Positions 4,380 through 42,924 of a stretch of 64,000 nt of DNA are shown piece by piece. The position numbers were made by a program, and so were the translations under genes. Numbering within the stretch: the first letter of the stretch is position 1; every line of letters begins with the position of its first letter. Below the pieces are notes generated by a model. It saw nothing but the letters and a program-made list of their open reading frames with translations, ran no database searches and had not been told where the DNA came from. The stretch is from an uncultured Porphyromonadaceae bacterium (GTDB taxonomy: Bacteria; Bacteroidota; Bacteroidia; Bacteroidales; Muribaculaceae): the NCBI GenBank assembly GCA_900540205.1, contig UQER01000009.1, positions 132 through 64,131 of the forward strand. The letters run 5' to 3'.

Positions 4380-5957
4380 TTATGATTTCGGTGTAAGAGT
4401 TACCAGCGGTATCAGCATCTCCTCCAGCGAGATGCCTCCGTGCTGGAATGTGCCGGTGTAATACTGCACGTAGTAATTGTAGTTGTTGGGGTAGGCGAAG
4501 AAGTCGTTGTTTCCGGCAAAGATATAGGCCGAACTGATGTTTGGCGCAGGCAGGCCGAACGCCTCCGGTTTCTTTATTTCGTAGACCTGGCGGTTGTTGT
4601 AGGCGAGGTTTTTCCCCACCTTGTAGCGCAGGTTGGTGTTGGTGTTCTTGTCGCCAACCACTTTCACCGGGTTGTCCACTCGGATTGTGCCGTGGTCGGT
4701 GGTGACAATCACCTTCGCGCCCGATTCGGCTATGCGGCGGAACAGCTCGAGCGCCGACGAATGGCGGAACCACGATTCGGCCAGCGAGCGGTATGCAGCG
4801 TCGGAGCCGGCCAGTTCACGGATCATGCGGCTTTCGGTGCGGGCATGCGAGAGCATGTCGATGAAATTAAGCACGATTATGTTCAGGTCGTTGTTGGCGA
4901 GGTTGGAGAATTCGCGCAGCAGTTTTTCGCCTCCTGCCGAGTCGTTGATTTTGTTGTAGGAGAAGCGGCAGTTGCGGCGGTAACGCTTGAACAGTGTTTC
5001 CACCAGTTCGCTCTCGTTGAGGTTCTTCCCCTCCTCCTCGTCCTCGTCGACCCACAGGTGCGGGAACATCCGGGCAATGTCAATAGGCATCAGTCCGGAA
5101 AATATGGCGTTACGGGCATACTGCGTGGCGGTGGGGAGGATGGACGTGTAAAGGCTTTCGTCGAAGGTGAAGAATTCTGCCAGCATCGGTTTCACCGACA
5201 GCCAGAGGTCGAGGCGGAAATTGTCGATGAGAACAAAAAACACCTTTTCGCCTGCATCGAGCAGCGGCATCACCTTTTTGGGAAATACCTCGGGACTCAT
5301 CAGCGGACGGTCGGCGGCGTCGGCCTTAGCGGCGCCTTTCAGCGACGGGATGGATTCCACCCAGTCCTCGTAGTTGCGCCGCACGAATTTGAAGAATGCG
5401 GCGTCGGCCTCGGCTTTCTGCATTTTCAGCATGTCGGCCATGTTCGAGTCGGCCGATGCCAGGCGCAGTTCCCATGCCACGAGCTTTTCGTATAGGGTAT
5501 AGTAACTGTCGATGTCGGCTGCGCTGTTTATGAGCATCCCCAGATGGCCGAACTCCTGCTGGTAGCTGGATGTGGCTGTCTGCGACACAAGTTTCTCGCT
5601 GTGCAGGTTCTTCTTGATCGACATGAGAATCTGGTTGGGGTTCACGGGCTTTATCAGGTAGTCGGCAATGTTGTTGCCCACGGCCTGGTCCATGATGTTT
5701 TCCTCCTCGCTCTTGGTAATCATGATTACAGGGGTCTGCGGCGACATCTCCTTGATGCGCTGGAGAGTTTCCAGTCCGGTGAGGCCCGGCATGTTTTCGT
5801 CCAGTATCACCAGGTCGAAGTGTCGCGATGCCACCAGTTCGAGGGCATCGTGGCCGTTGTTCACCGTCACGGGGTCATAGCCCTTGCTGCGGAGAAACAT
5901 TATGTGGGGTTTCAGCAGGTCGATTTCATCGTCGGCCCAGAGTATCGAGTTGTTCAA
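4380..5957 (-). CDS. porX: Response regulator receiver fused to a PglZ/alkaline-phosphatase-like domain (PorX-like T9SS regulator)
   Basis: 525 aa. The N-terminal CheY receiver has ADDEIDLL and [14 protein letters not shown]. The C-terminal PglZ-type domain has the TTDHG motif. Size and architecture match PorX. T9SS core genes occur elsewhere in the window. Confidence 0.7.
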
Positions 5958-8827: not shown

Positions 8828-11800
8828 TCAGTCGAGGAGAGGATCGTCGCCTTCCGACCCCGGTTCGTATTCCGGGAGGACAGGCGTAGCCGGCTTCGGA
8901 GTTTCTACGGGCGTATTCGGTTTGGGTTTCTCCTGAGGTTTATCCGGTTTGGGTTGTTCCTGAGGTGCTGTTGTTGTGTATGTTTCCGGACTTGTTGTGG
9001 TTTTTTCCGGAGCTTCATTCGTTTTGTCCGGCGAAGTTTGCGGCTTTTCCGGGGTTTGAACAGGCTCAGGGCTGGCAGGAATGTCGTCGGACGTCTCGGC
9101 AGTGACAGGTTCGGCTGCTTCAGGTTCGTCGGTTTCCTGTTCGGCATCCGGCTCGGGCGCTTGCTCCATGTCGTCGGGCATCATGTCCGTGGCGTCAGAC
9201 GGCATGACTGCGTCGCCGGGGATTGGGGCGGTGTCCTCCGCAGCCTCTTCGGGCGTCAGACCTTCCGATTCTCCGAACAATTCGGGCGGCAGCACGGCCT
9301 CCTCGGTGTCGCGATAGGTCTTGTCGCGCATGTAGCGGAAATATTCGTCGAACGAGCGGCCGTTGCGCAGCAGTGTGTCGAAATTCGCGGCGGAAATGAC
9401 CACCGGGCGCACTTCGGCGGGGAGCTGGAGTGTGGGGCTTGCCGCCATAACCTTGCGGTAATGGTTGATTTCCTCTACGTTTTCAAAGCCTTTGATAAGA
9501 AGCAGCCCGAGGCGTCCGAAATTCATCTGCTCAAGATCGAAATCCTTCACGACGAACGACGAGAAGTTGTGGCGCGCCACCTCATAGAGCAGTGCGTTCT
9601 GCGATATGCGGTCGGTGGGGAAAAGGAGCACCAGATATTGCTCGGTGTCCGGGTTGAGGTCGAACTCTATCTGCTCGTCGCTGACGGCGGTGGAGTCGGA
9701 ACCGAGACGGATGTCCCACAGCATGCCGCGCATGTTGCCCCCGCCGCTCTGCTGCAGCTCGCGGCCCTGGGCAAGTCCTTTCAGATAGGAGGAGGCGTAG
9801 GGGGTGATGTCGGTGTCGGGGTAGCGCTCGAGCAGTTCCATAAGTGTGTTCTTGAAACCCTCGGTGTTTTTGTCGGTGACATACGCCAGGGCCTCGAGGA
9901 ACATAAATTTGGGCATGAGCGGGCTTAGCGGGAAGTCGGAGCGCACTTTTGCGTAGGTGGAGTGCACGCCCCGGTTGTTGTTGTCGAGGTATGCCTGCAG
10001 CGCCTGGTCGTAGAGGCTGTTCTCCTGCTCCATCATGCGCCGGAGATTGCCCACATAGTCGGGGTCGCGCATGGCCATACCGTATTTGGAATCGGGAAAC
10101 TCGTTGAGGATCAGCTGACGGTAGTGCTCGGCGCGGTCCATCCGTCCCATGCGCACGAACATCAGATAGAGGTTATAATAAGCGTCGAGGCGGTAGATGT
10201 TGTCGGGGTAGCGGCGCAGCAGCTCCTCAAACTCCGTTTCAGATGCCGGAAAATCCTCGAGTTTGTCTTTCAGAATAACGCCCATGTTGTAAAGCCCCTC
10301 CTGGATGACGTCGTTGGCCGTCTGCTTCTCGGCGTCGGTTTTGGGGATTTGCTTGAGATAATACTCCGGATAATGGGGATCGTTCTCCTTGTCGGCATTT
10401 TCCTTACCGCCATTCTCCTTGTCTGCGGCTTCTGAATCAGTTTCATCAGTTTCCTCCTCGTTGTCGGCGGAGTCGTCGCCGGAGGTGCCGAAGTCGTTGA
10501 AATCGAAGGTGGATTTATTGCGGCGGCGCCAGTCGTCCTCAAGCTTTCGGTTACCCCACCGGCGCTGGAATTCGGTGCGGCCGGCGTTTTTGGTGGCCGT
10601 GTTGTAGAAGTACCATGAGTCGTCGCCGGTGTTCATCACGAACGTCTGCGGTGCTTTCGACGATGAGCCCTGCATGGTGTTGCCCATGGCGTCGCGGTTG
10701 GCAAGAAACTCCTCCCGTGCAGCCGCCTCGGCCTCCTTCTTTTCTTTCTCTTTCAGCTCCTCGATGATGCGTTCCACCACTTTCTGCTGCTGTTCGGGCG
10801 TCATGGCCGACAGGCGCAGCAGCGAGTCGTTGAGCTCTACGTTCTGCGAATAGAGTGCCAGCTCGTCGAGCACGTCGCTTCGGCGGCGCAGCTTGGCGTA
10901 GTCTGGCCATGTGGTAGGCAGCAGAGGCACCGCCTCCGAGTAGCATGGCTGTGCCTTGGAGTATTTGCGCAGGTCGTAGTAAAGTGAGCCAAGGGTTATC
11001 TGGGCTATCGCCTTGTCTATACCGGAACGGGTGGATTTCTCCACTGCCATCTCATAATTGGCGATGGCGTTTGTTGTGTCGGCGCGCGACAGGTACAGGT
11101 TGCCGATGGCGTAGTATATCTGGTCGAGATACTCTTTGTTGCGGTCATAGCGCACCATGCGCTTGAGGGCTTTTACCTCAGGGGTGATGTCGGCACCTGA
11201 AAACACCTCGCTCTGTTTGATGCGTGCGTTGAATTTCGTACGGTAGGAAGCCGACGAGCTTGAGCCGGCTTTGTCGAACGCTTTGTAGGCCAGCTCCTTC
11301 TGCCCGAGGGCGGAATACACCTGTCCCAACAGGAAGTTGAGCCTGGTGCGTTGCGGCCGTGTGGCCAGCGGAATCGCTTTTGTGAGCATAGGCACTGCCT
11401 CCTCATAGTTCTTCTGCTTTATGAGCAGGTCGGCGTATGTGGAATAATATAGCGAGCGTATGGGCTTGGAGGTGAGCTGTTCGGATTTTACGCGGGTGAG
11501 GATGTTCTCCGCCTCGAAAAGCCAGTCGAGCGCGCAGTAACTGCGTGCTTCCCACAGTTTGGCCTCTACCACGGTGGCCGGCAGCCAGGAGAAATGTTTG
11601 GAGATATAGAAGAATGTGGAGGCGGCTCCGAGAAAATCGCCGTTGAGATACTGGCTGCGTCCCATCATCATCCATGAATTGTGCAGGAAGGGATTGTATT
11701 CCTCCCGGCGCATCCACGCCTTGTACTTCGGGTCGGAGCTTTTGCCTGCCTTTTTCTTGGGTTTCTTCTTTATGGAACGCAACTGGATGGCTTTCTGGGC

Positions 11801-12118
11801 TTTCTCAATCGAGCGGTCGAAGTTGCCTTGCGGCTGCGGGGCCTTTTCGTCGGCCTTGGCGGCAGCCGGATGGATGAAGAGCATGCGCGAGAAGTCGTCC
11901 TCGTAGCTCTCTTCCATGTCGTGCAGGGTCTCTTTGTAGTGTGTGTCGCCGTTGTAATGGATGTTGTAGCGGGTGATGAACTCCTGATATTTGCGCGTGG
12001 CGGCAGTGTTCTTTTTGGGCGAGCACGAACATAGCAGACCCAGGGCCGCAATGGCCGGGGCCGCTGCTATCAGGGCTATGCGTGCAACTCTGTTCAAAGG
12101 AGCGGTGCTTACAGACAA
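8828..12118 (-). CDS. TPR-repeat lipoprotein with an acidic/Pro-rich C-terminal tail (possible SprE/PorW-like)
   Basis: 1096 aa. Lipobox LLCSCS. Several TPR-like stretches (AIGNLYLSRAD...ANYEMAVEKS; ITLGSLYYDLRKYSKA). The last ~170 aa form a low-complexity D/E/P/T tail. The PorW/SprE assignment is inference from architecture and T9SS neighbourhood only. Confidence 0.45.
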   Translation of the reverse strand: MSVSTAPLNRVARIALIAAAPAIAALGLLCSCSPKKNTAATRKYQEFITRYNIHYNGDTHYKETLHDMEESYEDDFSRMLFIHPAAAKADEKAPQPQGNFDRSIEKAQKAIQLRSIKKKPKKKAGKSSDPKYKAWMRREEYNPFLHNSWMMMGRSQYLNGDFLGAASTFFYISKHFSWLPATVVEAKLWEARSYCALDWLFEAENILTRVKSEQLTSKPIRSLYYSTYADLLIKQKNYEEAVPMLTKAIPLATRPQRTRLNFLLGQVYSALGQKELAYKAFDKAGSSSSASYRTKFNARIKQSEVFSGADITPEVKALKRMVRYDRNKEYLDQIYYAIGNLYLSRADTTNAIANYEMAVEKSTRSGIDKAIAQITLGSLYYDLRKYSKAQPCYSEAVPLLPTTWPDYAKLRRRSDVLDELALYSQNVELNDSLLRLSAMTPEQQQKVVERIIEELKEKEKKEAEAAAREEFLANRDAMGNTMQGSSSKAPQTFVMNTGDDSWYFYNTATKNAGRTEFQRRWGNRKLEDDWRRRNKSTFDFNDFGTSGDDSADNEEETDETDSEAADKENGGKENADKENDPHYPEYYLKQIPKTDAEKQTANDVIQEGLYNMGVILKDKLEDFPASETEFEELLRRYPDNIYRLDAYYNLYLMFVRMGRMDRAEHYRQLILNEFPDSKYGMAMRDPDYVGNLRRMMEQENSLYDQALQAYLDNNNRGVHSTYAKVRSDFPLSPLMPKFMFLEALAYVTDKNTEGFKNTLMELLERYPDTDITPYASSYLKGLAQGRELQQSGGGNMRGMLWDIRLGSDSTAVSDEQIEFDLNPDTEQYLVLLFPTDRISQNALLYEVARHNFSSFVVKDFDLEQMNFGRLGLLLIKGFENVEEINHYRKVMAASPTLQLPAEVRPVVISAANFDTLLRNGRSFDEYFRYMRDKTYRDTEEAVLPPELFGESEGLTPEEAAEDTAPIPGDAVMPSDATDMMPDDMEQAPEPDAEQETDEPEAAEPVTAETSDDIPASPEPVQTPEKPQTSPDKTNEAPEKTTTSPETYTTTAPQEQPKPDKPQEKPKPNTPVETPKPATPVLPEYEPGSEGDDPLLD

Positions 12119-18994: not shown

Positions 18995-19108
18995 TAATTC
19001 CAGACACTATAAAAATTAAACCGGATGCCAGGTTGCACCACGCGTGATGCGGTTATGCAGCTTCAGGTCCGGTTCACAGGATTATCAACCAAAATTCCAG
19101 CACAACAC

Positions 19109-21940: not shown

Positions 21941-23944
21941 ATGGAAAAAAGTAAAACCGCTATGCCGCCCGCACCCGAGGCGGAGGGATTCGCCAACGAT
22001 GTGGATCCTGTGGAACTGCCCGAAAACGCGTTCCGCGAACTCGGCGCCGATGAGCAATACCGCCCGCTGATGCATCCGGCGCGCCAGTACCGTGAGGTCA
22101 CGGTCTATTCCGTGCTGATGGGTCTGGTGCTCTGCGTCATCTTCAGCGCCGCGGCTGCCTATCTCGGGCTTAAGGTTGGGCAGGTGTTCGAGGCCGCCAT
22201 CCCCATCTCTATCATTGCAGTGGGTCTGTCGAGCGCCCTGAACAAGAAGAATGCCCTCGGGCAGAATGTAATCATACAGAGCATCGGAGCATGCTCTGGC
22301 GTGATTGTGGCGGGAGCCATTTTCACACTTCCGGCTCTCTACATCCTTCAGGCCAAGTATCCCGAGATTTCGGTGAACTTCTTCCAGATATTCCTCAGCT
22401 CTCTGCTCGGCGGTGTGCTCGGAATCCTGTTCTTCATCCCCTTCCGAAAATATTTCGTGAAGGACATGCACGGCAAATACCCCTTCCCGGAGGCTACCGC
22501 CACCACTCAGGTACTCGCAAGCGGACAGACCGCCGGAGCTGCCGGCGGCTCACAGGCCAAGACTCTCGTCATAGCCTCGCTGATCGGTGGTATATACGAC
22601 TATGTAGTTGAGATCTTCGGCTTCTGGGCCGGAACGCTCACAACCACGGTCGGGAGCTGGGGTGAAGCCATTGCCGCAAAGACAAAGCTTGTGCTGAGCT
22701 GCAACACAGGAGCCGCCGTGCTCGGTCTGGGCTACATCATCGGCTTGCGTTACGCCTTCATCATCTGCGCCGGTTCGTTCTTTGTGTGGTGGGTGATTAT
22801 CCCCCTGATGGGAACATACGGCAATGCAGAGATTGCGGCCATGAGCTCCAACGAGATTTTCAGCAATTATGCCCGCATGATCGGTATCGGCGGTATCGCC
22901 ATGGCCGGTGTCATCGGCATCGTCAAGTCGTGGCCCATCATCCGTCAGGCAGTCGGGCTTGCAGGCCGTGAGTTCAAGGGTGGTGCGGCAGCAGCCGAAC
23001 GTCCGCAGCGCTGGCAGTGGGACATATCGATGAAGCACATAGTGTTCTTCATCGGTTTGGCCCTTGTTGCCGTGTTGCTGTTCTTCCGTTTCGGTGTCAT
23101 CGACAGCTGGTGGCAGGCCATCATCGCATGGGTGGTGGTTACCCTTATCGCCTTCCTGTTCACCACCGTTGCGGCCAATGCCATCGCCATAGTGGGTTCA
23201 AATCCTGTTTCGGGCATGACGCTCATGACCCTTATCATAGCATCGGCCATCTTCGTGGCCATCGGTCTTAACGGAACTTCCGGCATTGTGGCCTCGATGG
23301 TTATCGGAGGTGTGGTTTGCACCGCACTCTCGATGGCCGGCGGCTTCGTCACCGACCTCAAGGTTGGATACTGGCTTGGCTCGACCCCACGCCGTCAGGA
23401 ACAGTGGAAATTCCTCGGTACACTGGTGTCGGCAGCCACCGTCGGCGGTGTGATTCTGGTGCTCAACCAGGTGTACGGCTTCTCGGGTGAGAATGCCCTT
23501 GTGGCACCTCAGGCCAACGCCATGGCCAAGGTCATCGAGCCGCTAATGATGGGTGGCGACACCCCCTGGATTCTTTACATGACCGGCGTTGTTCTCGCTC
23601 TGCTGCTCAACTGGCTCGGCGTTCCGGCCTTGGCATTCTGCCTGGGTATGTTCATACCCCTGTCGCTCAATACACCGCTCCTTGTAGGCGGTGCCGTGGC
23701 ATGGTTCGTGGGTAACAGCTCTAAGGACAAGAAAGTGAACGAGGCACGCCGCGACCGTGGCACACTCATCTCCTCCGGCCTCATTGCCGGGGGCGCCCTG
23801 TTCGGTGTGTTTGCCGCCCTTACCCGCTTCTTCGGCTATGAATATGTATGTGGAGTGTCGGCCGGCATGTTGCAGGTCTATGGCCTCATCGCTTATGCGC
23901 TCCTCATAGCCTACCTCTGGTGGTCCTCCCTCCGCGCCAAATAA
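21941..23944 (+). CDS. OPT-family oligopeptide transporter
   Basis: 667 aa, polytopic, with an OPT-like N-terminus and organisation. Confidence 0.75.
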   Translation: MEKSKTAMPPAPEAEGFANDVDPVELPENAFRELGADEQYRPLMHPARQYREVTVYSVLMGLVLCVIFSAAAAYLGLKVGQVFEAAIPISIIAVGLSSALNKKNALGQNVIIQSIGACSGVIVAGAIFTLPALYILQAKYPEISVNFFQIFLSSLLGGVLGILFFIPFRKYFVKDMHGKYPFPEATATTQVLASGQTAGAAGGSQAKTLVIASLIGGIYDYVVEIFGFWAGTLTTTVGSWGEAIAAKTKLVLSCNTGAAVLGLGYIIGLRYAFIICAGSFFVWWVIIPLMGTYGNAEIAAMSSNEIFSNYARMIGIGGIAMAGVIGIVKSWPIIRQAVGLAGREFKGGAAAAERPQRWQWDISMKHIVFFIGLALVAVLLFFRFGVIDSWWQAIIAWVVVTLIAFLFTTVAANAIAIVGSNPVSGMTLMTLIIASAIFVAIGLNGTSGIVASMVIGGVVCTALSMAGGFVTDLKVGYWLGSTPRRQEQWKFLGTLVSAATVGGVILVLNQVYGFSGENALVAPQANAMAKVIEPLMMGGDTPWILYMTGVVLALLLNWLGVPALAFCLGMFIPLSLNTPLLVGGAVAWFVGNSSKDKKVNEARRDRGTLISSGLIAGGALFGVFAALTRFFGYEYVCGVSAGMLQVYGLIAYALLIAYLWWSSLRAK

Positions 23945-23955
23945 TCCCCTCGCCA
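23860..23955. repeat. Left copy of a ~96-bp imperfect direct repeat (3' end of the OPT gene); candidate attL
   Basis: ...catgttgcaggtctatggcctcatcgcttatgcgctcctcatagcctacctctggtggtcctccctccgcgccaaataatcccctc recurs at 29000-29095 with about 5 mismatches. Confidence 0.7.
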
Positions 23956-24037
23956 CCCTTCGGTAGCAGATTATTTGCCGCCCTCCGGACGCAAAAACTT
24001 CGCTACCAACAGACTGCATTGTCTGCACCCCATAAAA

Positions 24038-24080
24038 CCCACAGGGCTGATTCTTCACTTGCGAGAATCAGCCCTGTGGG
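24038..24080. terminator. Hairpin cccacagggctgattct / agaatcagccctgtggg (left copy)
   Basis: 17-bp stem with a 9-nt loop downstream of the OPT gene. The same stem with a different loop recurs at 29158-29198. Confidence 0.55.
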
Positions 24081-24172
24081 TCTGTTATTATGCCATAATA
24101 TTAATGGTTTGTGTCACATCATTATATCGGACAATCGTTGGTTTTGTCTGAATAAATTCCTGTAGAATCAGA

Positions 24173-26569
24173 TTAATTAATATGATGGAGAGTCAAGGAC
24201 GGTTGGAAGAGAGTTCCAGCAATCCTTGATTTGGATTCACTTATTTGCATTATGGGCATAATGTCAAGATTCGGAACGTCAGGCAACTTTGTTCTGGAGA
24301 TTCGTGCCCCGTTCGGCTGCTGATATGATACGGCTTGCTCAACTTCTGCCGGGAAATGGATTCTGCATGGTTGTTTTGCTGAATATAGATCAGACCCTAT
24401 CCATATTGTCGGACAAAGAATTTCTACGATATTATTGGCAAATGTGGATTGGGCGTATTGGCTGTTTGCCATGGCATCGATAATGTCCTGTATGGAAGCG
24501 TCAGGATATTCTGCAAGCATTTCTCCTTCTATATTGCTGATAATTAATTCTTTGTTGATTGGGCTTGGTGTAAAACCGGAACGTTGTGGCGTTACAAATA
24601 CATACCCATCATAGATGTGGAACTGTATCAGAGCCATGTCTGCGAGGGCTCCTGTTGTGTTCTGCTCAGCATAGGGGCATGCGGTCTGTTTCGACCACGG
24701 TTTATCGATGGCATAAAGTGTCGGATCGGTTCTGGATTGATAAAGGTCTACATTCCAGGAATTGTCTGCAGCTGCTGCCGGCGCTCCTTCCTCCAGCACG
24801 CCGGCTATCCAACCGTCTTCGAAGAGAGTCTGGCCGAGATATGTCCATTTGTCAGGAGAAAAGTCCTTGATGTATAGATTGTCGGAGGCAGATCCGATAA
24901 CATTGCCGTCAGTGTCAAAAAGCACAGATACCACTCTCAAATCGCCTGAGAGAGAAGTGTTGAGAATGAAGGAGCCTTCCCGGGAGTTATTGCAGGATAC
25001 AGGCGTAATCTGTCCGGAGTTTTCCACTATGTAATCAACTGCACTCTCAACACTCAGCTCCGTGACAATGGATTTTATATTGTCAGCCTTGTGTCTGGCC
25101 TGAGTGTACTTCACAATGACATCTTTGGTTCCATCGCCTTTGTCTGCAATTTCGGTTACTTTTGTTGTAATGGGTGCGACATAAGGTTTGTCAAACTCAG
25201 GACCTTCATGTACGAAATACTCGTTGCCAACGATGTAATATCGACCTGGAATCTCTTTGGGGTAATATATCACATGGAGTTTCATTACTCCGTTTTCAGG
25301 CGAATAATAACTCGGCTCGGTGGGAATCTGACGGATATTCTCGGAAAACCAGTCTGTTGTGGCAACACAAAGCGTATTTCCGTCACCTACATCAGTTGTC
25401 ATCTCCGTTTCAGGGATATATACATCTATATTGTTGTCGGCATTGCGGTTGTAAATATTGTCGGCTGTGACAACGATTGCGTCCGGTGCGCCTATAGTTA
25501 TGCGGTAAGTTGCACCCATTACTCCCTCTGAAGGATTGTATCTTACGGACAGGTCAGCAGGGTAATCACCGGCATAGAGAATGCTATGCAGTTCTCCTGA
25601 CGTTACTTCTGATTCTAATCCGGAGAACTCGTATATGGTGAAATAATTTGAGGAAACGGCAGTTGCGTCACCGATTATATTTCCCTCGAAATCATATGCC
25701 TTATATACTATCATTACGCCGCAATGCTCCGCATCCGGTTCAACCGTGAAAATGGTGGCTGGATTATCGGAAATAGAAAATCTGGTGCCACCTTCGCTGT
25801 TGAGCTTTTCTGTGAGACGGGTTTGAAGATTGTCATCATATCCGGCAACGGCATCCCAGCAGGCCTCGATATGATCCACAATACCATCGTATGTAGAAGC
25901 CTGAATGTTTGCGGAAAATTTATTGTTGTCGGTTGTGATTTCATACTTGAAGTTAACCGGGGCATAATAAGGTGCCGTAATGTATTCAACTGCGGCTGAA
26001 CTGAATGTCTTGCCGTCTTGATAATCAGGGGCGTAATACACCACATCAAGACGCATCAGATAGTATGAGTCGTAATACGACAGCTTTCTGGCCACGTATT
26101 CCTGGCCAAGCACATCGGCATTGTAGTGATCGGCGTCTGCAATCCATATCTCGCCGTACTCCGGGTGATGGTAGCCGGTTGACTGGCATGGAATTTCCAG
26201 GTTAACCCCGGCGTATGTCTGGACACCTCGTAGAGTAATGGATCTGCATCCGTTGCCCCAGCCTGAGATGACAATCGTGTGGTCTGTAGGATTGTTGGCC
26301 ACATATCGGTCCGTCACTTTGACATTGTGGTCAATATTTGTGAATAACGACTTATGGTACCACCGGGCATTGTCCCAGAGGTTTTCGGTCAGATAATTGT
26401 CAACGGGTGTTTCGGGGATTTCCTCAAGTTGGAGAAAACTGAATTCATCCACAGCGTCGGTATCGATATATCTCACAGTGCCATCCTTCATCTCTACCTT
26501 CATAATGATGGTCTGTGCACAGACCATCAGCACGGTCAAAGACAGCAGTGACAATAGAAGTTTTTTCAT
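24173..26569 (-). CDS. Hypothetical secreted 798-aa protein (islet gene 3)
   Basis: Signal peptide MKKLLLSLLSLTVLMVCAQ. No recognisable catalytic or sorting motif. Low GC. The N-terminal module IIMKVEMKDGTVRYIDTDAVDEFSF is shared with the other two islet proteins. Confidence 0.7.
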   Translation of the reverse strand: MKKLLLSLLSLTVLMVCAQTIIMKVEMKDGTVRYIDTDAVDEFSFLQLEEIPETPVDNYLTENLWDNARWYHKSLFTNIDHNVKVTDRYVANNPTDHTIVISGWGNGCRSITLRGVQTYAGVNLEIPCQSTGYHHPEYGEIWIADADHYNADVLGQEYVARKLSYYDSYYLMRLDVVYYAPDYQDGKTFSSAAVEYITAPYYAPVNFKYEITTDNNKFSANIQASTYDGIVDHIEACWDAVAGYDDNLQTRLTEKLNSEGGTRFSISDNPATIFTVEPDAEHCGVMIVYKAYDFEGNIIGDATAVSSNYFTIYEFSGLESEVTSGELHSILYAGDYPADLSVRYNPSEGVMGATYRITIGAPDAIVVTADNIYNRNADNNIDVYIPETEMTTDVGDGNTLCVATTDWFSENIRQIPTEPSYYSPENGVMKLHVIYYPKEIPGRYYIVGNEYFVHEGPEFDKPYVAPITTKVTEIADKGDGTKDVIVKYTQARHKADNIKSIVTELSVESAVDYIVENSGQITPVSCNNSREGSFILNTSLSGDLRVVSVLFDTDGNVIGSASDNLYIKDFSPDKWTYLGQTLFEDGWIAGVLEEGAPAAAADNSWNVDLYQSRTDPTLYAIDKPWSKQTACPYAEQNTTGALADMALIQFHIYDGYVFVTPQRSGFTPSPINKELIISNIEGEMLAEYPDASIQDIIDAMANSQYAQSTFANNIVEILCPTIWIGSDLYSAKQPCRIHFPAEVEQAVSYQQPNGARISRTKLPDVPNLDIMPIMQISESKSRIAGTLFQPSLTLHHIN

Positions 26570-26604
26570 ATTAAAAATGTGTTGAGTAGTGAAGAAGGTG
26601 TTTG

Positions 26605-28248
26605 TTATTCGTTCCAGTTGCCGGCCGGCCCATAAACCGGGAGTGCAGATTCTTGTTCATAGTCGAAGCCTTCCACTTGGGGAGCGACTTTAGGATAACG
26701 GCAGAGCATGAACTTGGAATTGCCACGGATACGCAGGATATAACGGTCAGGTACAGCCTCATCGCCGAAGCGGTCCATGTCGAGCTGCAGGCGCAGTTTG
26801 TCAAAGTACACAAGGCCCTCGCCCCAGAACTCGGCACGACGCTGCCAGATGATTTCGTTCTGGAGCGTCTTGGCATCGGTGGCTTGGCAAGAATAGCCCG
26901 GATTACGATAAGTGGCAACAAAATCGGTAAGAACATTGCGTGCCTCATCAACATTTCCAGACATGGCCAGACCTTCTGCCCGGATGAGATACATCTCCTC
27001 TATTCGCATCAAAGGGATATCGGATGCAGGAACCGGATGCACCACCCGCCCCTGATAGTTGTCGAATTTAACGTTGAGATATGGCATACGGGGAGTCTCG
27101 TAAGACAAATTGACAACCTTCTGTTGGGCCGGAGTGAGGTTCTTGTTTTTACCGGATTCATCGGTAAACCACATGCGCCGCACATCATTGCCTTGCGCCT
27201 CAAGATACTGATGGAGCGCTTTTCCGCAGCATTTGGGCACGGCGAAATTGCAGTATCCTCCATCGAATATCGAACAGATCTGCGAGGTAAAATTACAAAC
27301 ATTATTTTTGGTGGATGCATCGTCGGGATTAATGGTAATAGCCCACATCCAGTTGCCGAGCTTTGCATCGTTGAAACCTGGATAGGCAGCGGCAGCAGGC
27401 AGAAGCGGGCGCCCTGAGGATGCCTCTATCGCCATGGAGGCATCAGCTGCAGCGTCGGCGTAGCGGTGCATCGTCAGCTTGTAGCGGGCACGAAGGCCAT
27501 AGGCCGCCCCCAGGTTGATATACCGCTTTGCCACGGTCACGTTGATGTGCGCGGGATCCATGGATATCTCCTTCAGATTGTCTATTGCAAGATTGATGTC
27601 GGCCAAAATGGCGGAATACACATCTTCAACCGTTGAAAGCGGATATGTGCCGTCGCGTCCGGAGTTTTCCGGAAGAATGACTATCCCCGGGGCTTGCGGC
27701 GCAAAATGGTAGTTGGGGGCATACATCTGCACCAGATTCCAATATGCCCATGAACGTAGGGCATGTGCCTGAGCCAAAAGCAGACGGCTTTCTTCTGACG
27801 AGGCGGCGTGGTTGCTGATTATCGAATTGCAGCCGTGAATAGTGGAGTACATCATGGCCCACATATAGCCTGTCGGATGATATAGCGGTGACTGGGTATT
27901 GAATATGCACCATTCTCTAAACCAATTGTAGCCGCTGTCGGGGACGTTCATATCCTCTGTCATACAGTCGAGCCCTATCAGGATGCCTCCGTAGCCGATG
28001 GCGAAATGGCCATTGTAAAACGTGAGAATTTCTTTCAGAAAATCGAAGCGTTCATTGACTAACGTGTAAAGCTCGCTGCCGGTATCCACGCCGCGTGCAA
28101 ACGAGATTCGGGCGATGTCGTCGGCAGGTATGTAGTCAACGATTCCATCGTTGTATTGTATCCGGACAACTTCGCGGGGATCTGCCTGGGCGAAAATACC
28201 TGCGGTCAGTGCGATGGCCGTTGTAATTGTTTTAAATGTATTGTTCAT
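26605..28248 (-). CDS. SusD/RagB-fold protein that is not a lipoprotein and has no adjacent SusC (islet gene 2)
   Basis: 547 aa. The C-terminal IIWQRRAEFWGEGLVYFDKLRL matches the SusD_RagB signature (ERRxELafEGxRwxDLrR). The signal peptide ends AQA with no Cys lipobox. The N-terminal extra module is VVRIQYNDGIVDYIPADDIARISF. Confidence 0.65.
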   Translation of the reverse strand: MNNTFKTITTAIALTAGIFAQADPREVVRIQYNDGIVDYIPADDIARISFARGVDTGSELYTLVNERFDFLKEILTFYNGHFAIGYGGILIGLDCMTEDMNVPDSGYNWFREWCIFNTQSPLYHPTGYMWAMMYSTIHGCNSIISNHAASSEESRLLLAQAHALRSWAYWNLVQMYAPNYHFAPQAPGIVILPENSGRDGTYPLSTVEDVYSAILADINLAIDNLKEISMDPAHINVTVAKRYINLGAAYGLRARYKLTMHRYADAAADASMAIEASSGRPLLPAAAAYPGFNDAKLGNWMWAITINPDDASTKNNVCNFTSQICSIFDGGYCNFAVPKCCGKALHQYLEAQGNDVRRMWFTDESGKNKNLTPAQQKVVNLSYETPRMPYLNVKFDNYQGRVVHPVPASDIPLMRIEEMYLIRAEGLAMSGNVDEARNVLTDFVATYRNPGYSCQATDAKTLQNEIIWQRRAEFWGEGLVYFDKLRLQLDMDRFGDEAVPDRYILRIRGNSKFMLCRYPKVAPQVEGFDYEQESALPVYGPAGNWNE

Positions 28249-28286
28249 AAGTATAATCTAAATCATTAAAAAACCTGTGTGTCTGT

Positions 28287-28778
28287 TTAGAGCGATAACT
28301 TCGTGACAAACTTACCGATACGGACAATATAGACGCCATGCCCGACAATGTTACGGCGCAGTGAGAATGCCCCGTCGGCCGATGCTTCCGAAAAGACTCT
28401 GTTACCGGAGATGTTGTAAATTTCCACGGCAGCATTGTCAGCGATGCCGGTGAAAACAACGGCTTCTGCACCGATTTTTACACAAATGGCATCTCCGGGA
28501 TTTGCATCGGTTTTGGTGATACCGGAATATTTGTCCTTTTCGCCGTAATCACAGGATTGCACATCGTCAAACGATATTGATACAGGCTCTGCTGTCGGGT
28601 CGGCCTTTACTTCGACGGTTATCGAGCGGTCATCATTAAAGGTCAGTTCCGGTTCATCTTCGAGGAGCAGTGTAATTACCCCATGCGAAGCAGTGTGGAT
28701 ATGCAACGCCGTTATGGCTGCGAAAGATGCCGACGCGCATATCATGAATGTGATAATGAAAAACAATAACTTTTTCAT
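28287..28778 (-). CDS. Small secreted protein made of the shared N-terminal module plus a T9SS C-terminal sorting domain (islet gene 1)
   Basis: 163 aa. Signal MKKLLFFIITFMICASASFA. The CTD-like tail is VEIYNISGNRVFSEASADGAFSLRRNIVGHGVYIVRIGKFVTKLSL. N-terminal repeats are ITLLLEDEPELTFNDD and ITVEVKADPTAEPVSISFDD. Confidence 0.6.
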   Translation of the reverse strand: MKKLLFFIITFMICASASFAAITALHIHTASHGVITLLLEDEPELTFNDDRSITVEVKADPTAEPVSISFDDVQSCDYGEKDKYSGITKTDANPGDAICVKIGAEAVVFTGIADNAAVEIYNISGNRVFSEASADGAFSLRRNIVGHGVYIVRIGKFVTKLSL

Positions 28779-28955
28779 AGAAGAAATATATGATTGTGAA
28801 TATTATGAGAGTTACCCGGATAATGGCCTGATTGTACGCGCTTAGGTATTTGAATGGTTTTCACGGTAATACATAAAGAGCACCTTGCAAAGGTATAAAC
28901 AAAGTTTCATTTTACCCCCCCTATTAGTTAAAGATTGTTAACAAGGTGTGCTTCT

Positions 28956-28993
28956 CCAGTTTAACATACTGTCACCAGTTTAACATACTGTCA
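28956..28993. repeat. Tandem 19-bp direct repeat ccagtttaacatactgtca x2 at the right edge of the islet
   Basis: Two perfect copies (28956-28974 and 28975-28993), each partly palindromic (CAGT...ACTG). They lie immediately left of the right direct repeat and upstream of islet gene 1. Confidence 0.6.
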
Positions 28994-28999
28994 GATGTG

Positions 29000-29095
29000 T
29001 TTTCACGGCATGCTGCAAGTCTATGGCCTCATCGCCTATGCGCTCCTCATCGCCTACCTCTGGTGGTCCTCCCTCCGCGCCAAATAATCCCCTCA
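29000..29095. repeat. Right copy of the ~96-bp direct repeat (duplicated OPT 3' end); candidate attR
   Basis: See the left copy. The duplicated fragment is not preceded by an ORF in its reading frame, so it is a displaced gene end. Confidence 0.7.
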
Positions 29096-29157: not shown

Positions 29158-29198
29158 ACACAGGGCTGATTCTTGCAAACGAAGAATCAGCCCTGTGT
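29158..29198. terminator. Hairpin acacagggctgattctt / aagaatcagccctgtgt (right copy), overlapping the 3' end of the Y1 transposase-like gene
   Basis: Same stem as 24038-24080 with a different loop (gcaaacg). Confidence 0.55.
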
Positions 29199-30140
29199 TT
29201 GTGTTTCCTGGCAGATGCGTTCTGCAAGTGAATTCATGGCGAGGCAGCTTTGGCGGGATAATGGTGTGGGGAGGTCGGCGGAGATGATGAGCATGCGGCC
29301 GGTCTCACATAGGTTGAAGTCTGAGCCGGAGGGTTTGTAACGGGCATCCATCTGTTCGTTTGTTATCACGATGAAACGGGAGCCGAGGGCTTCCGCTTCT
29401 GTGCGGATGGCTTTCTCTGCGGGGGAGATAAATGGCGAGACAAGCACGCCGCCATTGGCAGCCGTATACAGCCACTGGGACTTCAACCGGTGGTTTTCCT
29501 CATCCGAGTAGTGCCGATGCACCAGCACTTGTTGTTTGAAGGGATACTCCAACAGTTGGAAATTGCCATAGGCATGATAGCTCTTGCCTCCGATTTCGAG
29601 CGCGTTGACGCGTCTGAAATGTTCCGGGTATCGTTGCCTTACGGCCAGCCGACGAGGGTTGTCGCGGATATATTGGTATAAAGTTGCCAACTGGCCTTCG
29701 TGCATTAATATCCTGTCATGAAATCCCGGTTCAAATACAACCAGATCCGGCGATTGGTATTCTTCCCGTACTTTACGGGTAACGGTTGCCTTGATTGCCT
29801 GAACGATTTCTCCGAGTGTCCGTCTCATAGGGCGGGTTACAAACAGCAAGAGGTGGAAATGATCAGGCATAAGCCCGAATTCAAGTATCCGTATTTCAGG
29901 ATTATGCGATGGGGTGTCCCTGATTGCGTCAATTATTATTTTGCCGGCGGCAGATGAGTCGATATATGCCTGGGTTAAATCTTCGGGGATGATGAGGCGG
30001 CCGAATGTGGGCGCTGCGGCATGCTTGTTGGCAGTCACCATGTAGATGCACCTGGCATGGTAGTCATGCCATGGTGCCCTGCGCCGCCCGTTAGGGATGG
30101 TGGCTTTCCAGTAGGGAGGCTTTGGAGAGGGAGTGGCCAT
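29187..30140 (-). CDS. IS200/IS605-like HUH Y1 transposase-family protein with a ~150-aa C-terminal extension (RAYT-like)
   Basis: 317 aa. LEFGLMPDHFHLLLFV is the HuH motif. VFEPGFHDRILMHEGQLATLYQYIRDNP matches the Y1 helix (catalytic Tyr in YIxNNP-like context). No partner tnpB is present. Confidence 0.65.
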   Translation of the reverse strand: MATPSPKPPYWKATIPNGRRRAPWHDYHARCIYMVTANKHAAAPTFGRLIIPEDLTQAYIDSSAAGKIIIDAIRDTPSHNPEIRILEFGLMPDHFHLLLFVTRPMRRTLGEIVQAIKATVTRKVREEYQSPDLVVFEPGFHDRILMHEGQLATLYQYIRDNPRRLAVRQRYPEHFRRVNALEIGGKSYHAYGNFQLLEYPFKQQVLVHRHYSDEENHRLKSQWLYTAANGGVLVSPFISPAEKAIRTEAEALGSRFIVITNEQMDARYKPSGSDFNLCETGRMLIISADLPTPLSRQSCLAMNSLAERICQETQTQG

Positions 30141-30242: not shown

Positions 30243-31079
30243 CTGGACTGGGCGGGTGAGGGCGGCCAAAGGGGAGGGGAGGAAGAGGCCGGGGGTGAGG
30301 GCGCGGGAGGCGAGGGCGGCGGTGAGCTGGGGGCGGAAGGCCATGGCTACCGAGCCGACGAAGTTGACGGGGTGGCCTTCGGGGTAGATCAATAGGTTAC
30401 GCTCTACGAACAGGGAGGCTCCTCGTTCAATGATGCCCGCTATGTGGGGATGGCTGATGTGTTCGCTTGCAAACGGCGCGAGAGAGGCCAGAAAGCGGTT
30501 GGGAGCGGTATCAATGGAGGGGTCGGGACGATATACGCGGCGGATTATTTCGTCGGCATCGAGGCGGAACCGCTCTGTGAATTTCTCAGCCAGTGCGGCC
30601 GGGAGAAGCCCTTTGATGAAATCGGCGGCTATCTGCTTCCCTATCCATGCTCCGGAGAATTCATCGCCAAGGATGTAGCCTCCGGGCGAGGCGTTCAGAA
30701 TGATAGCGTTCCCATCGTAGAAGCATGAGTTGGCGCCTGTGCCGAGAATAGCCACTATTCCGGGGTTGTTGCCGAGAACGGCGCGGCAGGCACCGAGCAT
30801 GTCGCTTTCCACGATAATCCTTTCAGCGCCCGTGACTGCCTGCAAGGCTTCGCGCATGGCGGCAAGGGGCTGCGCGCCCCGGCATCCGGCTCCGTAGAAT
30901 TCCACTTCGGTCACTTCGGCATGTGGCGGCAATTGGAACTCAGCACGCAGTCTGCGCAGCAGTTCATCGGCTGTCATCACCGACGGGTTCAGTCCGCCGG
31001 TTGTGAATGTGTGTATCCGGTCGCCGTCAATCAGCGCCCAACTCACTTTGGTGCTCCCACCGTCGGCTATCAGTTTCAT
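30219..31079 (-). CDS. BadF/BadG/BcrA/BcrD-type ASKHA sugar kinase (MurNAc/GlcNAc kinase MurK-like)
   Basis: The start is taken at MKLIADGGSTKVSWALI, the typical BadF-type N-terminus. GTGANSCFYDG is the second ATPase motif. It is about 287 aa and co-oriented with namZ and ampG. Confidence 0.6.
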   Translation of the reverse strand: MKLIADGGSTKVSWALIDGDRIHTFTTGGLNPSVMTADELLRRLRAEFQLPPHAEVTEVEFYGAGCRGAQPLAAMREALQAVTGAERIIVESDMLGACRAVLGNNPGIVAILGTGANSCFYDGNAIILNASPGGYILGDEFSGAWIGKQIAADFIKGLLPAALAEKFTERFRLDADEIIRRVYRPDPSIDTAPNRFLASLAPFASEHISHPHIAGIIERGASLFVERNLLIYPEGHPVNFVGSVAMAFRPQLTAALASRALTPGLFLPSPLAALTRPVQLMAELGH

Positions 31080-32335
31080 TTGTAAAGATGGTATTTCTGT
31101 TTTGTGTTCTTGAACTCCTCCACTCCGTTGTGCCATATGGGGAGAATGTCGGCCACCTTGTGGCGTTTGAAGAATGCCGGGCGCAGGGTGGCATTGCCTG
31201 TCACCTTGTCGAACATCCCGAAGCGTGCGGCGGATGCGGCAGCCGACGCTTTGTGAGCCGGATAAAGCCGTGCCAGCTCCTGCATTGCGTAGAATTGAAT
31301 GAGCGTCAGTTCCGCACGGTCGAAGTCAGTGACCACCACTTCCACACCTCCAAGATCAGAGCCTTTGGCGAACCCATAATAGGGCCGGTAGTTGATAGGG
31401 CGGAACCGCACGCCAGGCAGATTCAGGGCATTGAGCGCTTCGGCCAGTTTGTGGCTGTTGATCCAAGGCGCTGCGAATGTGCGGAACGGCAGGGTGTAGC
31501 CCACGCCGATGGAGATATAATCCAGTTCGCCGGCGATACCGGTGGCAGGATAATAGATGGCGGTTTCGGCCGAGGGGATATGAGGTGACGGCAGTACCCA
31601 CGGCAGTCCGGTTGACGGATAGAGCATACTGCGGTTCCATCCCTCCATCGGCACTACTGTGAGATGCAGCTTGTCGGCATTCTTTATCATCCTCTCGCCT
31701 TTGAGCATCTGGGCAAGTTCTCCCGGTGTGAGCCCGTAGAGGTAGGGGATGGAGAACTGTCCTACAAACGAGCGCATGTCGGGCTGCACGGGTGCGCCCT
31801 CCACCTTGTTGCCTCCGAGTGGGTTCGGACGGTCGAGCACCATGAACTCTTTCCCGAGTGCCGCACACTGTTCCATGGCAAGCCCCATGGTGGAGATGAA
31901 CGTGTAGGAGCGGCAGCCGTTGTCCTGAATGTCATAGACAAGCACATCCACATCCTTGAGCATGGCGGCTGTGGGTTTGCGTGTGGCTCCGTAGAGCGAA
32001 TAAACCTTTATTCCCGTCAGGGCGTCGGTGGTGGGTGCCACTTTCTGTCCGGCAGGGATGTCGCCACGCACACCGTGCTCCGGGGCGAAAAGCGCCACCA
32101 GCTCCACTTCAGGCGCCTCGTTGAGGATGTCGATGGTGGAGCGCAGGTTGCTGTCCACTCCGGTAGGATTCGTTATGAGGCCCACGCGTTTGCCGCGCAG
32201 AGCCTCGAAACCGCTGTCGCGCAGCGTCTCGATGCCTGTGCGTACCTGAGCAGCGGAGTTTAGGGTGCCCGCTGATACAAGCAGCAGTGCGGTCAGAAGG
32301 ATAAGGCGGAAGGAGTAAGGGGCAGTGTGTTTCAT
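31076..32335 (-). CDS. namZ: DUF1343 exo-beta-N-acetylmuramidase (NamZ-like)
   Basis: 419 aa with a signal peptide. GKRVGLITNPTGVDSN and ALFAPEHGVRGD resemble YbbC/NamZ motifs. Confidence 0.7.
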   Translation of the reverse strand: MKHTAPYSFRLILLTALLLVSAGTLNSAAQVRTGIETLRDSGFEALRGKRVGLITNPTGVDSNLRSTIDILNEAPEVELVALFAPEHGVRGDIPAGQKVAPTTDALTGIKVYSLYGATRKPTAAMLKDVDVLVYDIQDNGCRSYTFISTMGLAMEQCAALGKEFMVLDRPNPLGGNKVEGAPVQPDMRSFVGQFSIPYLYGLTPGELAQMLKGERMIKNADKLHLTVVPMEGWNRSMLYPSTGLPWVLPSPHIPSAETAIYYPATGIAGELDYISIGVGYTLPFRTFAAPWINSHKLAEALNALNLPGVRFRPINYRPYYGFAKGSDLGGVEVVVTDFDRAELTLIQFYAMQELARLYPAHKASAAASAARFGMFDKVTGNATLRPAFFKRHKVADILPIWHNGVEEFKNTKQKYHLYK

Positions 32336-35755: not shown

Positions 35756-35763
35756 CTTCCGGC

Positions 35764-37140: not shown

Positions 37141-37155
37141 GGTGTCAGTATGTCG

Positions 37156-42885: not shown

Positions 42886-42924
42886 GTGATGAGGATTAGC
42901 CGCACCGGGAGTGGAGGTTTTTGA

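What the first reader, a model, noticed from the sequence alone, without database searches (positions are those of the whole stretch)
24173..28778. Three co-directional islet proteins share an unexplained N-terminal ~25-aa beta-hairpin-like module; one is a minimal T9SS-CTD protein
Right after each signal peptide the proteins read: P1 ALHIHTASHGVITLLLEDEPELTF, with a second repeat ITVEVKADPTAEPVSISFDD; P2 VVRIQYNDGIVDYIPADDIARISF; P3 IIMKVEMKDGTVRYIDTDAVDEFSF. All fit the pattern of alternating hydrophobics, then DG, then Φ-x-Y/Φ-Φ, then an acidic stretch, then Φ-x-F. P1 is little more than this module plus a classical T9SS C-terminal sorting domain (VEIYNISGNRVF…GVYIVRIGKFVTKLSL). P1 would therefore be surface-anchored by the T9SS (Por secretion system). 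P2 is SusD-fold and P3 is a 798-aa unknown. Hypothesis: the module mediates hetero-assembly, for example by beta-strand complementation. That would tether the SusD-like protein and the large protein to a T9SS-anchored scaffold as a surface complex, independent of the usual SusC/SusD pairing.
Basis: partly seen in the sequence, partly recalled or inferred. Interest (0 to 1): 0.75.

Follow-up and report, generated by a model that had tools for sequence, protein, structure and literature searches.

The report
Hairpin-tagged proteins paired with mini T9SS adaptor
A strain-variable three-gene islet in a gut Bacteroidales genome pairs a tiny protein that carries a type IX secretion (T9SS) sorting domain with two secreted proteins that have no sorting domain and no lipid anchor but share a conserved 24-residue N-terminal hairpin tag, and the same pairing recurs with other cargo types elsewhere, which suggests a sorting signal supplied by a separate protein.

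Summary
The three co-directional genes are real and form a conserved unit. P1 is 163 aa: signal peptide, a 60-aa beta domain and a T9SS type A C-terminal sorting domain (CTD). P2 is a 547-aa SusD-like protein with no lipobox. P3 is a 798-aa string of beta-sandwich domains.

P2 and P3 share a fixed-spacing 24-aa module directly after the signal peptide. Its ungapped BLOSUM62 score is 48, the best non-self match of 65,208 positions. hhalign gives P = 2e-4. P1's N-terminus is not the same module (P = 0.2-0.3); it is a separate, highly conserved small domain.

The P1-P2-P3 order is kept in 9 distinct loci in unrelated neighbourhoods. The tag is rare: 42 hits in 1.84 billion representative proteins, 28 of them N-terminal. 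It also occurs on GxGYxYP, DUF4957/DUF5123, Lcl_C-like and unknown proteins. In every informative case a P1-like mini-CTD gene lies immediately upstream, and some P1-like proteins carry the tag fused to themselves. The window also encodes the T9SS proteins PorX and PorW.

Best reading: P1 is a T9SS-sorted adaptor or anchor whose N-domain binds the tags and so exports or displays cargo that lacks a CTD. Binding and export are inferred, not shown. I found no prior description.

The parts
28287..28778 (-). P1: 163-aa protein made of a signal peptide, a 60-aa beta domain, a linker and a T9SS type A C-terminal sorting domain (proposed adaptor or anchor).
   Evidence: ORF. TIGR04183 scores 23.9 bits against a cut-off of 23. 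24 of 31 family members match TIGR04183 at E <= 0.01. The family profile hits solved T9SS CTDs 8glk_D (E = 0.0018), 8glj_D and 8qb1. About 30 close homologues exist, all about 164 aa.
28539..28718 (-). P1 N-terminal beta domain (aa 21-80, AITALHIHTASHGVITLLLEDEPELTFNDDRSITVEV...CDYGE). This is the proposed tag-binding module.
   Evidence: It is the most conserved part of P1: 62% mean pairwise identity against 30% for the linker and 49% for the CTD. In the relative P0050 it is modelled as six strands with pLDDT 77-90. It is not similar to the P2/P3 tag.
28290..28481 (-). P1 T9SS type A C-terminal sorting domain (aa about 100-163, ...VEIYNISGNRVF...GVYIVRIGKFVTKLSL).
   Evidence: The equivalent region of P0050 is modelled as a beta-sandwich with pLDDT above 90.
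26605..28248 (-). P2: 547-aa SusD-fold protein with a signal-peptidase-I type signal peptide, no conserved lipobox cysteine and no CTD.
   Evidence: PF14322 at 2e-11 and PF07980 at 7.6e-10. The N-termini of 9 orthologues show no conserved Cys.
28099..28170 (-). P2 N-terminal hairpin tag (aa 27-50, VVRIQYNDGIVDYIPADDIARISF).
   Evidence: It is conserved in all P2 orthologues. The general tag HMM scores it 52.7 bits.
24173..26569 (-). P3: 798-aa secreted protein made of the tag, an acidic/proline linker, a string of FN3/Ig-like beta-sandwich and small beta-barrel domains, and a disordered C-terminus. It has no CTD.
26435..26506 (-). P3 N-terminal hairpin tag (aa 22-45, IMKVEMKDGTVRYIDTDAVDEFSF).
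   Evidence: It is the most conserved 24-aa window of the whole P3 family (rank 1 of 775), with 69% identity against 26% for the body (alignment). In the model it forms a hairpin with low pLDDT that does not pack on the body.
28888..28895 (-). Candidate Bacteroidetes -7 promoter box TAccTTTG, about 110 nt upstream of the P1 start (inference only).
   Evidence: Read from the sequence. The consensus TAnnTTTG is from my own knowledge.
23863..23951 (.). Left copy of the 89-nt direct repeat bounding the islet. It is the true 3' end of the OPT transporter gene.
   Evidence: Strains with an empty site carry a single copy.
29006..29094 (.). Right copy of the 89-nt direct repeat (96% identical to the left copy). 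The islet proper is 23952-29005.
4380..5957 (-). PorX, the T9SS response regulator (context: the host has a T9SS).
   Evidence: NF052313 at 801 bits against a cut-off of 300.
8828..12118 (-). PorW/SprE, the T9SS periplasmic lipoprotein (context: the host has a T9SS).
   Evidence: NF052312 at 687 bits against a cut-off of 250.

Best explanation
The islet encodes a two-part surface-display or export module that depends on the type IX secretion system.

P1 is a minimal T9SS type A cargo. After signal-peptide removal it consists of a conserved 60-aa beta domain, a variable linker and a CTD that targets it to the SprA/PorV translocon. By analogy with other type A cargo, the CTD would be cleaved and the remainder attached to anionic LPS.

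P2 (SusD-fold) and P3 (multi-beta-sandwich) are exported to the periplasm by Sec and signal peptidase I. They have neither a lipid anchor nor a CTD. Each starts with a 24-residue strand-DG turn-strand-ISF tag on a flexible linker.

The proposal is that the tag docks onto the P1 N-domain, probably by beta-sheet augmentation. P1 would then supply the sorting and anchoring signal for P2 and P3 as a separate protein. The complex would be carried through the T9SS translocon and/or held on the cell surface, giving a lipid-free, SusC-independent binding complex.

What is shown: gene anatomy, conservation of the tag, tag-adaptor gene linkage across cargo families, natural tag-adaptor fusions, and T9SS genes in the host.

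What is inferred: physical tag-adaptor binding, co-export, surface location, and the ligand.
For: 1. P1-P2-P3 occur in the same order in 9 distinct loci within unrelated neighbourhoods, even where P3 is only 24-28% identical.
2. The tag is the most conserved segment of P3: 69% identity against 26% for the body, rank 1 of 775 windows. The P1 N-domain is the most conserved segment of P1.
3. The P2 and P3 tags are significantly alike and in the same position.
4. A profile search of 1.84 billion representative proteins finds 42 hits at E <= 0.001. Of these, 28 begin at residues 19-30 of the protein, that is, just after a signal peptide.
5. Independent tagged cargo families each have a P1-like mini-CTD gene immediately upstream:
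   - a GxGYxYP + F5/8C protein (L019),
   - a 454-aa Lcl_C-like protein (L022),
   - a DUF4957/DUF5123-type protein (L023; the upstream 166-aa gene scores 54 bits, E = 3e-15, against the P1-like HMM),
   - the unknown protein P0084 (L025; the upstream gene scores 53 bits).
   The last two were reached only through the tag search.
6. Across 375 kb of loci plus the window, the tag HMM hits nothing except these N-termini.
7. P0048-P0052 are natural fusions of tag, P1-like N-domain and CTD.
8. The CTD is supported by TIGR04183 in 24 of 31 members, by hits to solved CTDs, and by a confident beta-sandwich model.
9. PorX, PorW and another CTD cargo lie in the same window.
10. P2 and P3 have no conserved lipobox, no CTD and no adjacent SusC.
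Against: - There is no direct evidence of binding. In the AlphaFold2 model of the natural fusion P0050 the tag has pLDDT of only 52-56, so it is not confidently docked on the N-domain. Multimer prediction could not be run.
- P1's own CTD score is borderline (23.9 bits against 23), and P0050 itself does not reach TIGR04183.
- The literature I could search holds no precedent for T9SS transport of a non-covalent complex or of a protein lacking a CTD on its own chain.
- The P2 tag is no more conserved than the P2 body (53% against 49%).
- All relatives are metagenomic. The linkage rests on five to six cargo families.
- More divergent tags may exist that the sharp, short profile missed. They might not be linked to P1-like genes.
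Confidence: 0.55

Rival explanations
1. The tag and the P1-like protein belong to one system, but the tag binds a third, common partner rather than the P1 N-domain. Candidates are PorV, another outer-membrane barrel, peptidoglycan or the LPS anchor. P1 would be a co-factor or a second subunit.
For: The gene linkage is equally compatible with this reading. In P0050 the tag does not dock on the N-domain in the same chain with any confidence.
Against: The 60-aa P1 N-domain is the best-conserved part of P1 and has no other evident role. The tag-adaptor fusions are most simply read as a sign of direct interaction. No third conserved gene accompanies the pairs.
Confidence: 0.2
2. P1 is a small T9SS signalling or regulatory cargo, like PorA of Porphyromonas gingivalis. 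P2 and P3 are periplasmic or released binding proteins whose N-terminal hairpin serves folding, stability or processing and is not a docking element.
For: Minimal CTD proteins with regulatory roles are known (PorA; PMC7712824 and PMC12152298, listed). PorX lies in the same window.
Against: P1-like genes are tied to very different tagged cargo genes in several loci, which is unlike a global regulator. The tag is detached from the P3 body in the model and sits on a flexible linker, which is not typical of a folding nucleus.
Confidence: 0.1
3. Head-to-tail polymer model. Tags insert into the N-domains of neighbouring subunits, as in donor-strand exchange of type V pili. The result would be short surface fibres anchored by the P1 CTD/LPS link and tipped by cargo.
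For: Some P1-like proteins carry both a tag and an N-domain, and the tag is not docked within the same chain in the model.
Against: The window's P1 has no tag, so it cannot polymerise in this way. There is no similarity to fimbrillins.
Confidence: 0.08
4. The N-terminal resemblance is a chance or compositional beta-hairpin pattern with no shared function.
For: Family-specific HMMs of the P2 and P3 tags do not cross-hit significantly. The resemblance of P1 to the tag is indeed not significant.
Against: The BLOSUM62 score of 48 is the top non-self match of 65,208 positions. hhalign gives P = 2e-4. The position and spacing are identical in six cargo families. The tag is extremely conserved in P3.
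Confidence: 0.02

Closest known systems
T9SS type A cargo (CTD on the same chain, PorV shuttle, PorU cleavage, A-LPS anchoring; e.g. gingipains, RemA)
   Same: P1 has a Sec signal peptide and a C-terminal domain that matches TIGR04183 and solved CTDs. The host encodes PorX and PorW/SprE.
   Different: The passenger is only about 60-75 aa and has no enzymatic or adhesive domain. The functional proteins P2 and P3 are separate polypeptides without a CTD. The sorting signal would have to come from a separate protein, which has not been described.
PorA (PGN_0123) of Porphyromonas gingivalis, a minimal CTD protein
   Same: It is a small protein that is little more than a signal peptide, a short N-terminal part and a T9SS CTD (PMC7712824).
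   Different: PorA acts in PorXY-SigP signalling and is not reported to pair with tagged neighbour genes. I did not compare the sequences.
SusC/SusD nutrient-uptake pairs with SusE/F-like surface glycan-binding lipoproteins
   Same: P2 has the SusD/RagB fold families. P3 is a string of Ig/FN3-like domains, as many surface glycan-binding proteins are.
   Different: There is no lipobox on P2 or P3 and no adjacent SusC-like TonB-dependent transporter in any of the 9 distinct triad loci. Instead both carry an N-terminal hairpin tag and sit next to a T9SS adaptor gene.
Cohesin-dockerin assembly of cellulosomes
   Same: The logic is the same: a short conserved tag on diverse glycan-related proteins, and a small beta-domain on a cell-anchored scaffold encoded nearby.
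   Different: There is no sequence or fold relationship. The tag is a 24-aa N-terminal beta-hairpin rather than a Ca-binding helical dockerin. The scaffold has one receptor domain and would be anchored through T9SS and LPS. The cargo must also cross an outer membrane.
Tat hitchhiker export and T2SS export of folded complexes
   Same: A partner without its own signal is exported by binding a signal-bearing subunit, and the translocon accepts folded proteins.
   Different: The machinery and the membrane differ. Nothing comparable has been shown for T9SS.
Mfa5 in type V (Mfa1) fimbriae
   Same: It is a T9SS-delivered CTD protein that assembles on the surface with proteins delivered by another route (PMC7835359).
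   Different: The Mfa partners are lipoprotein-route fimbrillins joined by strand exchange after proteolysis. No N-terminal hairpin tag and no mini-adaptor is involved.

Membership tests
T9SS type A CTD cargo (P1) | N-terminal Sec signal peptide | tested here: met
   MKKLLFFIITFMICASASFA|AITALHIHT. Orthologues show AxA|ALTALHIHT. This was checked by inspection, not with a predictor.
T9SS type A CTD cargo (P1) | C-terminal sorting domain of about 70 aa matching TIGR04183/PF18962 | tested here: met
   TIGR04183 scores 23.9 bits against a cut-off of 23. PF18962 scores only 15.9 against 27. 24 of 31 family members match TIGR04183 at E <= 0.01, best 4.8e-8. The family profile hits solved CTD 8glk_D at E = 0.0018. 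The result is marginal for the window protein alone and solid for the family.
T9SS type A CTD cargo (P1) | Host encodes a T9SS | tested here: met
   PorX scores 801 bits and PorW/SprE 687 bits. A further CTD cargo lies at 6104-8491.
T9SS type A CTD cargo (P1) | T9SS-dependent export, CTD cleavage by PorU, A-LPS attachment | not testable with these tools
   This needs mutants and proteomics.
SusD/RagB family (P2) | SusD-like_3 and SusD_RagB domains above the Pfam gathering scores | tested here: met
   PF14322 scores 45 bits against 27. PF07980 scores 39.3 bits against 23.1.
SusD/RagB family (P2) | Lipoprotein signal peptide with lipobox cysteine | tested here: not met
   The 9 orthologues have no conserved Cys. 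The cleavage context is signal-peptidase-I type (FAQA|DP, ARA|ET, YA|QS and similar).
SusD/RagB family (P2) | Adjacent SusC-like TonB-dependent transporter gene | tested here: not met
   No such gene is next to the triad in L001, L004, L006, L010, L011, L014-L016 or L018. The window's TonB-dependent receptor at 19025-21424 lies outside the islet and is also present in strains that lack the islet.
Cohesin-dockerin | Pfam cohesin or dockerin domains, or their folds | tested here: not met
   No such Pfam hits appear at E <= 1. Foldseek on the P1-like model finds nothing significant. The relation is analogy only.
PorA-like minimal CTD signalling protein | Sequence homology to PGN_0123 and a role in PorXY-SigP signalling | not tested
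   No PorA sequence was compared. P1 is linked to tagged cargo genes, not to porXY specifically.
Proposed tag/mini-CTD adaptor pairs (new grouping) | The cargo begins with a signal peptide followed by the fixed-spacing hairpin tag, and a P1-like gene (beta domain + CTD) lies immediately upstream | tested here: met
   The window triad and L001-L018 meet this, as do L019, L022, L023 and L025.

The most novel reading that the evidence does not exclude
T9SS can export and surface-anchor proteins that have no CTD of their own. A dedicated mini-adaptor (P1-like: beta domain + CTD) would capture a 24-residue N-terminal hairpin tag in the periplasm and carry the folded partner through the SprA translocon. 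This would be a hitchhiker route plus a cohesin/dockerin-like display system for Bacteroidota. The sorting signal would be supplied by a separate protein, and the route could be used as a two-part tag system.
Probability: 0.3. Interest if true: 0.9.

Novelty: new variant of a known kind. Interest (0 to 1): 0.78.

Why it matters
All current T9SS models require the CTD to be on the same chain as the cargo. A CTD supplied by a separate adaptor that recognises a short N-terminal tag would have three consequences.
- It would enlarge the predicted T9SS secretome, because cargo lacking a CTD is invisible to current predictors.
- It would explain how a SusD-fold protein can work without lipidation or a SusC partner.
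- It would provide a compact 24-aa tag and 60-aa receptor pair for surface display in Bacteroidota.

The islet is present or absent among otherwise near-identical human-gut strains. It may therefore contribute to strain-level differences in surface phenotype.

Tried and rejected
- Family-specific HMMs of the P2 and P3 tags did not cross-detect each other (E = 24-90). These profiles are too sharp, so I used ungapped scoring and hhalign instead.
The profile therefore had only one P2-type row (A6).
- A fused P1 + tag construct for structure prediction was not possible under the tool's input rules. The natural fusion P0050 was modelled instead, and its tag was not confidently placed.
- A sequence-profile search of solved structures with P3 gave nothing meaningful.
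- Literature searches for export via a separate signal-bearing protein, hitchhiker export, dockerin-like assembly or strand complementation in T9SS found no description of this arrangement.
The GTDB representative scan found only 6 MAG loci and not the window's own genome.
- The contexts of the tandem-tag fragments P0064 and P0065 were too short to interpret.
- I rejected a role for the TonB-dependent receptor at 19025-21424 as partner. It lies outside the islet and is also present in strains that lack the islet.
Full report
**Anatomy**

The region holds three co-directional minus-strand ORFs separated by 38 and 35 nt:
- P1, 28287-28778, 163 aa
- P2, 26605-28248, 547 aa
- P3, 24173-26569, 798 aa

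GC content is 44-52% here, against 55-60% in the flanks.

P2 matches SusD-like_3 and SusD_RagB above the Pfam cut-offs. P3 matches nothing. P1 reaches the NCBIfam T9SS type A sorting-domain model only just (23.9 bits against 23) and stays below the Pfam cut-off.

At family level the CTD assignment is firmer:
- 24 of 31 P1/P1-like proteins match TIGR04183 at E <= 0.01.
- The P1 profile hits solved T9SS CTDs (8glk_D, E = 0.0018; also 8glj_D and 8qb1).
- The equivalent region of a relative is modelled as a beta-sandwich with pLDDT above 90.

The same window encodes PorX (801 bits), PorW/SprE (687 bits) and another CTD cargo. The host therefore has a T9SS.

**The observation**

Each is the other's best non-self match among 65,208 positions of the window's six-frame translation; the next best score is 28. 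hhalign of the two family profiles gives P = 2.2e-4 over 26 columns.

The module has fixed geometry in every example: a 6-7-residue strand, a DG turn, and an F exactly 16 residues after the D. It starts 2-5 residues after a signal-peptidase-I type cleavage site, often with Q at +1.

P1's quoted segment is not this module. Its BLOSUM62 scores are 5 and 2, and hhalign gives P = 0.21 and 0.28. It is the start of a different 60-aa beta domain. That domain is the best-conserved part of P1: 62% pairwise identity, against 30% for the linker and 49% for the CTD.

**Conservation of the unit**

P3 is rare. It has 16 clusters among 5.8 billion proteins and occurs in 6 of 185,579 species-representative genomes, all Bacteroidales MAGs.

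Every locus with enough flank has the same P1-P2-P3 order. The neighbourhoods are unrelated: DXP synthase/Fic, peptidase M3 with a radical-SAM RiPP cluster, a restriction system, and others. This holds even where P3 is only 24-28% identical.

In the P3 family the tag is the single most conserved 24-aa window (rank 1 of 775), at 69% identity against 26% for the body.

None of the P2 or P3 orthologues has a conserved lipobox cysteine, a CTD or an adjacent SusC gene.

**The tag beyond the triad**

Distant P1 relatives (P0048-P0052, 186 aa) carry a P2/P3-type tag (EKTMCVQKTDGTYALTRVAELSKISF) fused in front of a P1-like N-domain and CTD.

The gene just downstream of them is a 714-aa GxGYxYP + F5/8C protein without a CTD. 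After its signal peptide it starts TTMFVHTTDGDIIPNDVTDVEKITF. Another P1-like protein (P0047) is followed by a 454-aa Lcl_C-like protein that starts KMVEIHLADGTVELKKVSDVVKISF.

A tag profile searched against 1.84 billion representative proteins gave 42 hits at E <= 0.001:
- 28 are single full-length matches that begin at residues 19-30 of the protein.
- The other 14 are partial matches inside long repetitive proteins.

Two new tagged proteins came only from this search: P0087, of DUF4957/DUF5123 type and located in a PUL, and the unknown P0084. Each has an immediately upstream small gene that scores 54 and 53 bits (E about 1e-15) against a P1-like HMM that was not trained on them.

Across 375 kb of fetched DNA the tag HMM hit nothing but these N-termini.

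The tag is therefore rare, strictly N-terminal, found on at least six unrelated cargo types, and consistently linked to a P1-like mini-CTD gene.

**Structure**

AlphaFold2 on P3 with 13 sequences gave mean pLDDT 80.
- Residues 57-745 form a confident, nearly all-beta body.
- The tag forms a hairpin plus a short helix at pLDDT about 45-54 and does not pack on the body.
- Residues 746-798 are disordered.

The natural fusion P0050 (31 sequences) gave mean pLDDT 80 and pTM 0.72.
- The N-domain is six-stranded, with pLDDT 77-90.
- The CTD has pLDDT above 90.
- Its own tag has pLDDT of only 52-56, so it is not confidently docked.

The fold has no significant match among solved structures. This neither supports nor excludes docking between separate chains.

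**Mechanism proposed**

P1 is a T9SS-sorted adaptor or anchor. Its N-domain would bind the hairpin tags of P2 and P3, most simply by beta-sheet augmentation. Proteins without a CTD or a lipid anchor would then be carried through the T9SS and/or held on the surface by the LPS-linked remnant of P1.

Shown: the anatomy, conservation, gene linkage, fusions, and T9SS genes in the host. Inferred: binding, co-export, surface location and the ligand.

The literature available to me describes only CTDs on the same chain as the cargo, with PorV or PorP-type carrier proteins. It describes nothing like this arrangement.

The rival readings are a third common partner, a PorA-like regulator, strand-exchange polymers, and chance. 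Each is listed in this report with its own test.

**Genomic context**

The islet (23952-29005) is bounded by an 89-nt direct repeat that duplicates the 3' end of the OPT transporter gene, together with a duplicated terminator hairpin.

Human-gut metagenome contigs encoding the identical OPT protein show three states of this site:
- an empty site with a single repeat copy (L029, L033),
- the same triad (L030, L031, L034),
- a different insert (L032).

The triad is therefore a strain-variable insertion at a recombination hotspot, next to a REP-associated tyrosine-transposase-like gene.

**Verdict**

This is a real, conserved and apparently undescribed arrangement. P1 carries the presumptive receptor domain rather than a third copy of the tag. 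The system is also broader than this triad.

Confidence in tag-adaptor binding with T9SS-dependent display is about 0.55. Confidence in true co-export through the T9SS is about 0.3.

Noticed in passing
window 4380-5957 (-), 8828-12118 (-), 6104-8491 (-): T9SS genes lie about 12-20 kb from the islet: PorX (801 bits), PorW/SprE (687 bits), and a 795-aa choice-of-anchor J/CARDB protein with a type A CTD.
   Followed up: yes
window 23863-23951 and 29006-29094; loci L029-L034: The islet is an insertion flanked by an 89-nt direct repeat of the OPT gene 3' end. Contigs with the identical OPT protein show an empty site (L029, L033), the same triad (L030, L031, L034), or a different 660-aa + 557-aa insert at the same site (L032).
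   Followed up: yes
window 24040-24078 and 29159-29197: Duplicated GC-rich terminator-like hairpins (CACAGGGCTGATTCTT...AAGAATCAGCCCTGTG) follow each copy of the repeat.
   Followed up: partly
window 28956-28993: A perfect tandem duplication of a 19-nt unit (TGACAGTATGTTAAACTGG, read on the minus strand) sits at the right edge of the islet, upstream of P1. It could be an operator or a recombination scar.
   Followed up: no
window 29187-30140 (-): A REP-associated tyrosine transposase-like (Y1_Tnp) gene lies directly beside the insertion site. It is below the NCBIfam cut-off (45.9 bits against 80) and is present in strains with and without the islet.
   Followed up: partly
window 42000-45000: A second low-GC stretch (42-48%) contains a 241-aa ORF with no family match and a hexapeptide-repeat transferase. 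It may be another islet.
   Followed up: no
P0064, P0065, P0070, P0076; locus L027: These short metagenomic proteins carry two tags in tandem: a P1-like-fusion type followed by a GxGYxYP type. It looks as if the adaptor's N-domain and CTD had been deleted between two tags. The contigs are too short to judge.
   Followed up: partly
L004 12709-21552: In one relative the triad sits next to a radical-SAM/SPASM/PqqD/ABC-transporter RiPP-like cluster. This is probably coincidental.
   Followed up: no
L019 6290-9769: A 1159-aa Peptidase_C25 (gingipain-family) protein with a CTD lies directly upstream of the tag-fused P1-like gene and its GxGYxYP cargo.
   Followed up: no
window 31076-39948 (-): To the right of the islet lies a cell-wall recycling and remodelling cluster: NamZ exo-muramidase, an MFS (AmpG-like) transporter, a SpoIID-like protein, and a protein with amidase_3 and Golvesin_C domains.
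   Followed up: no
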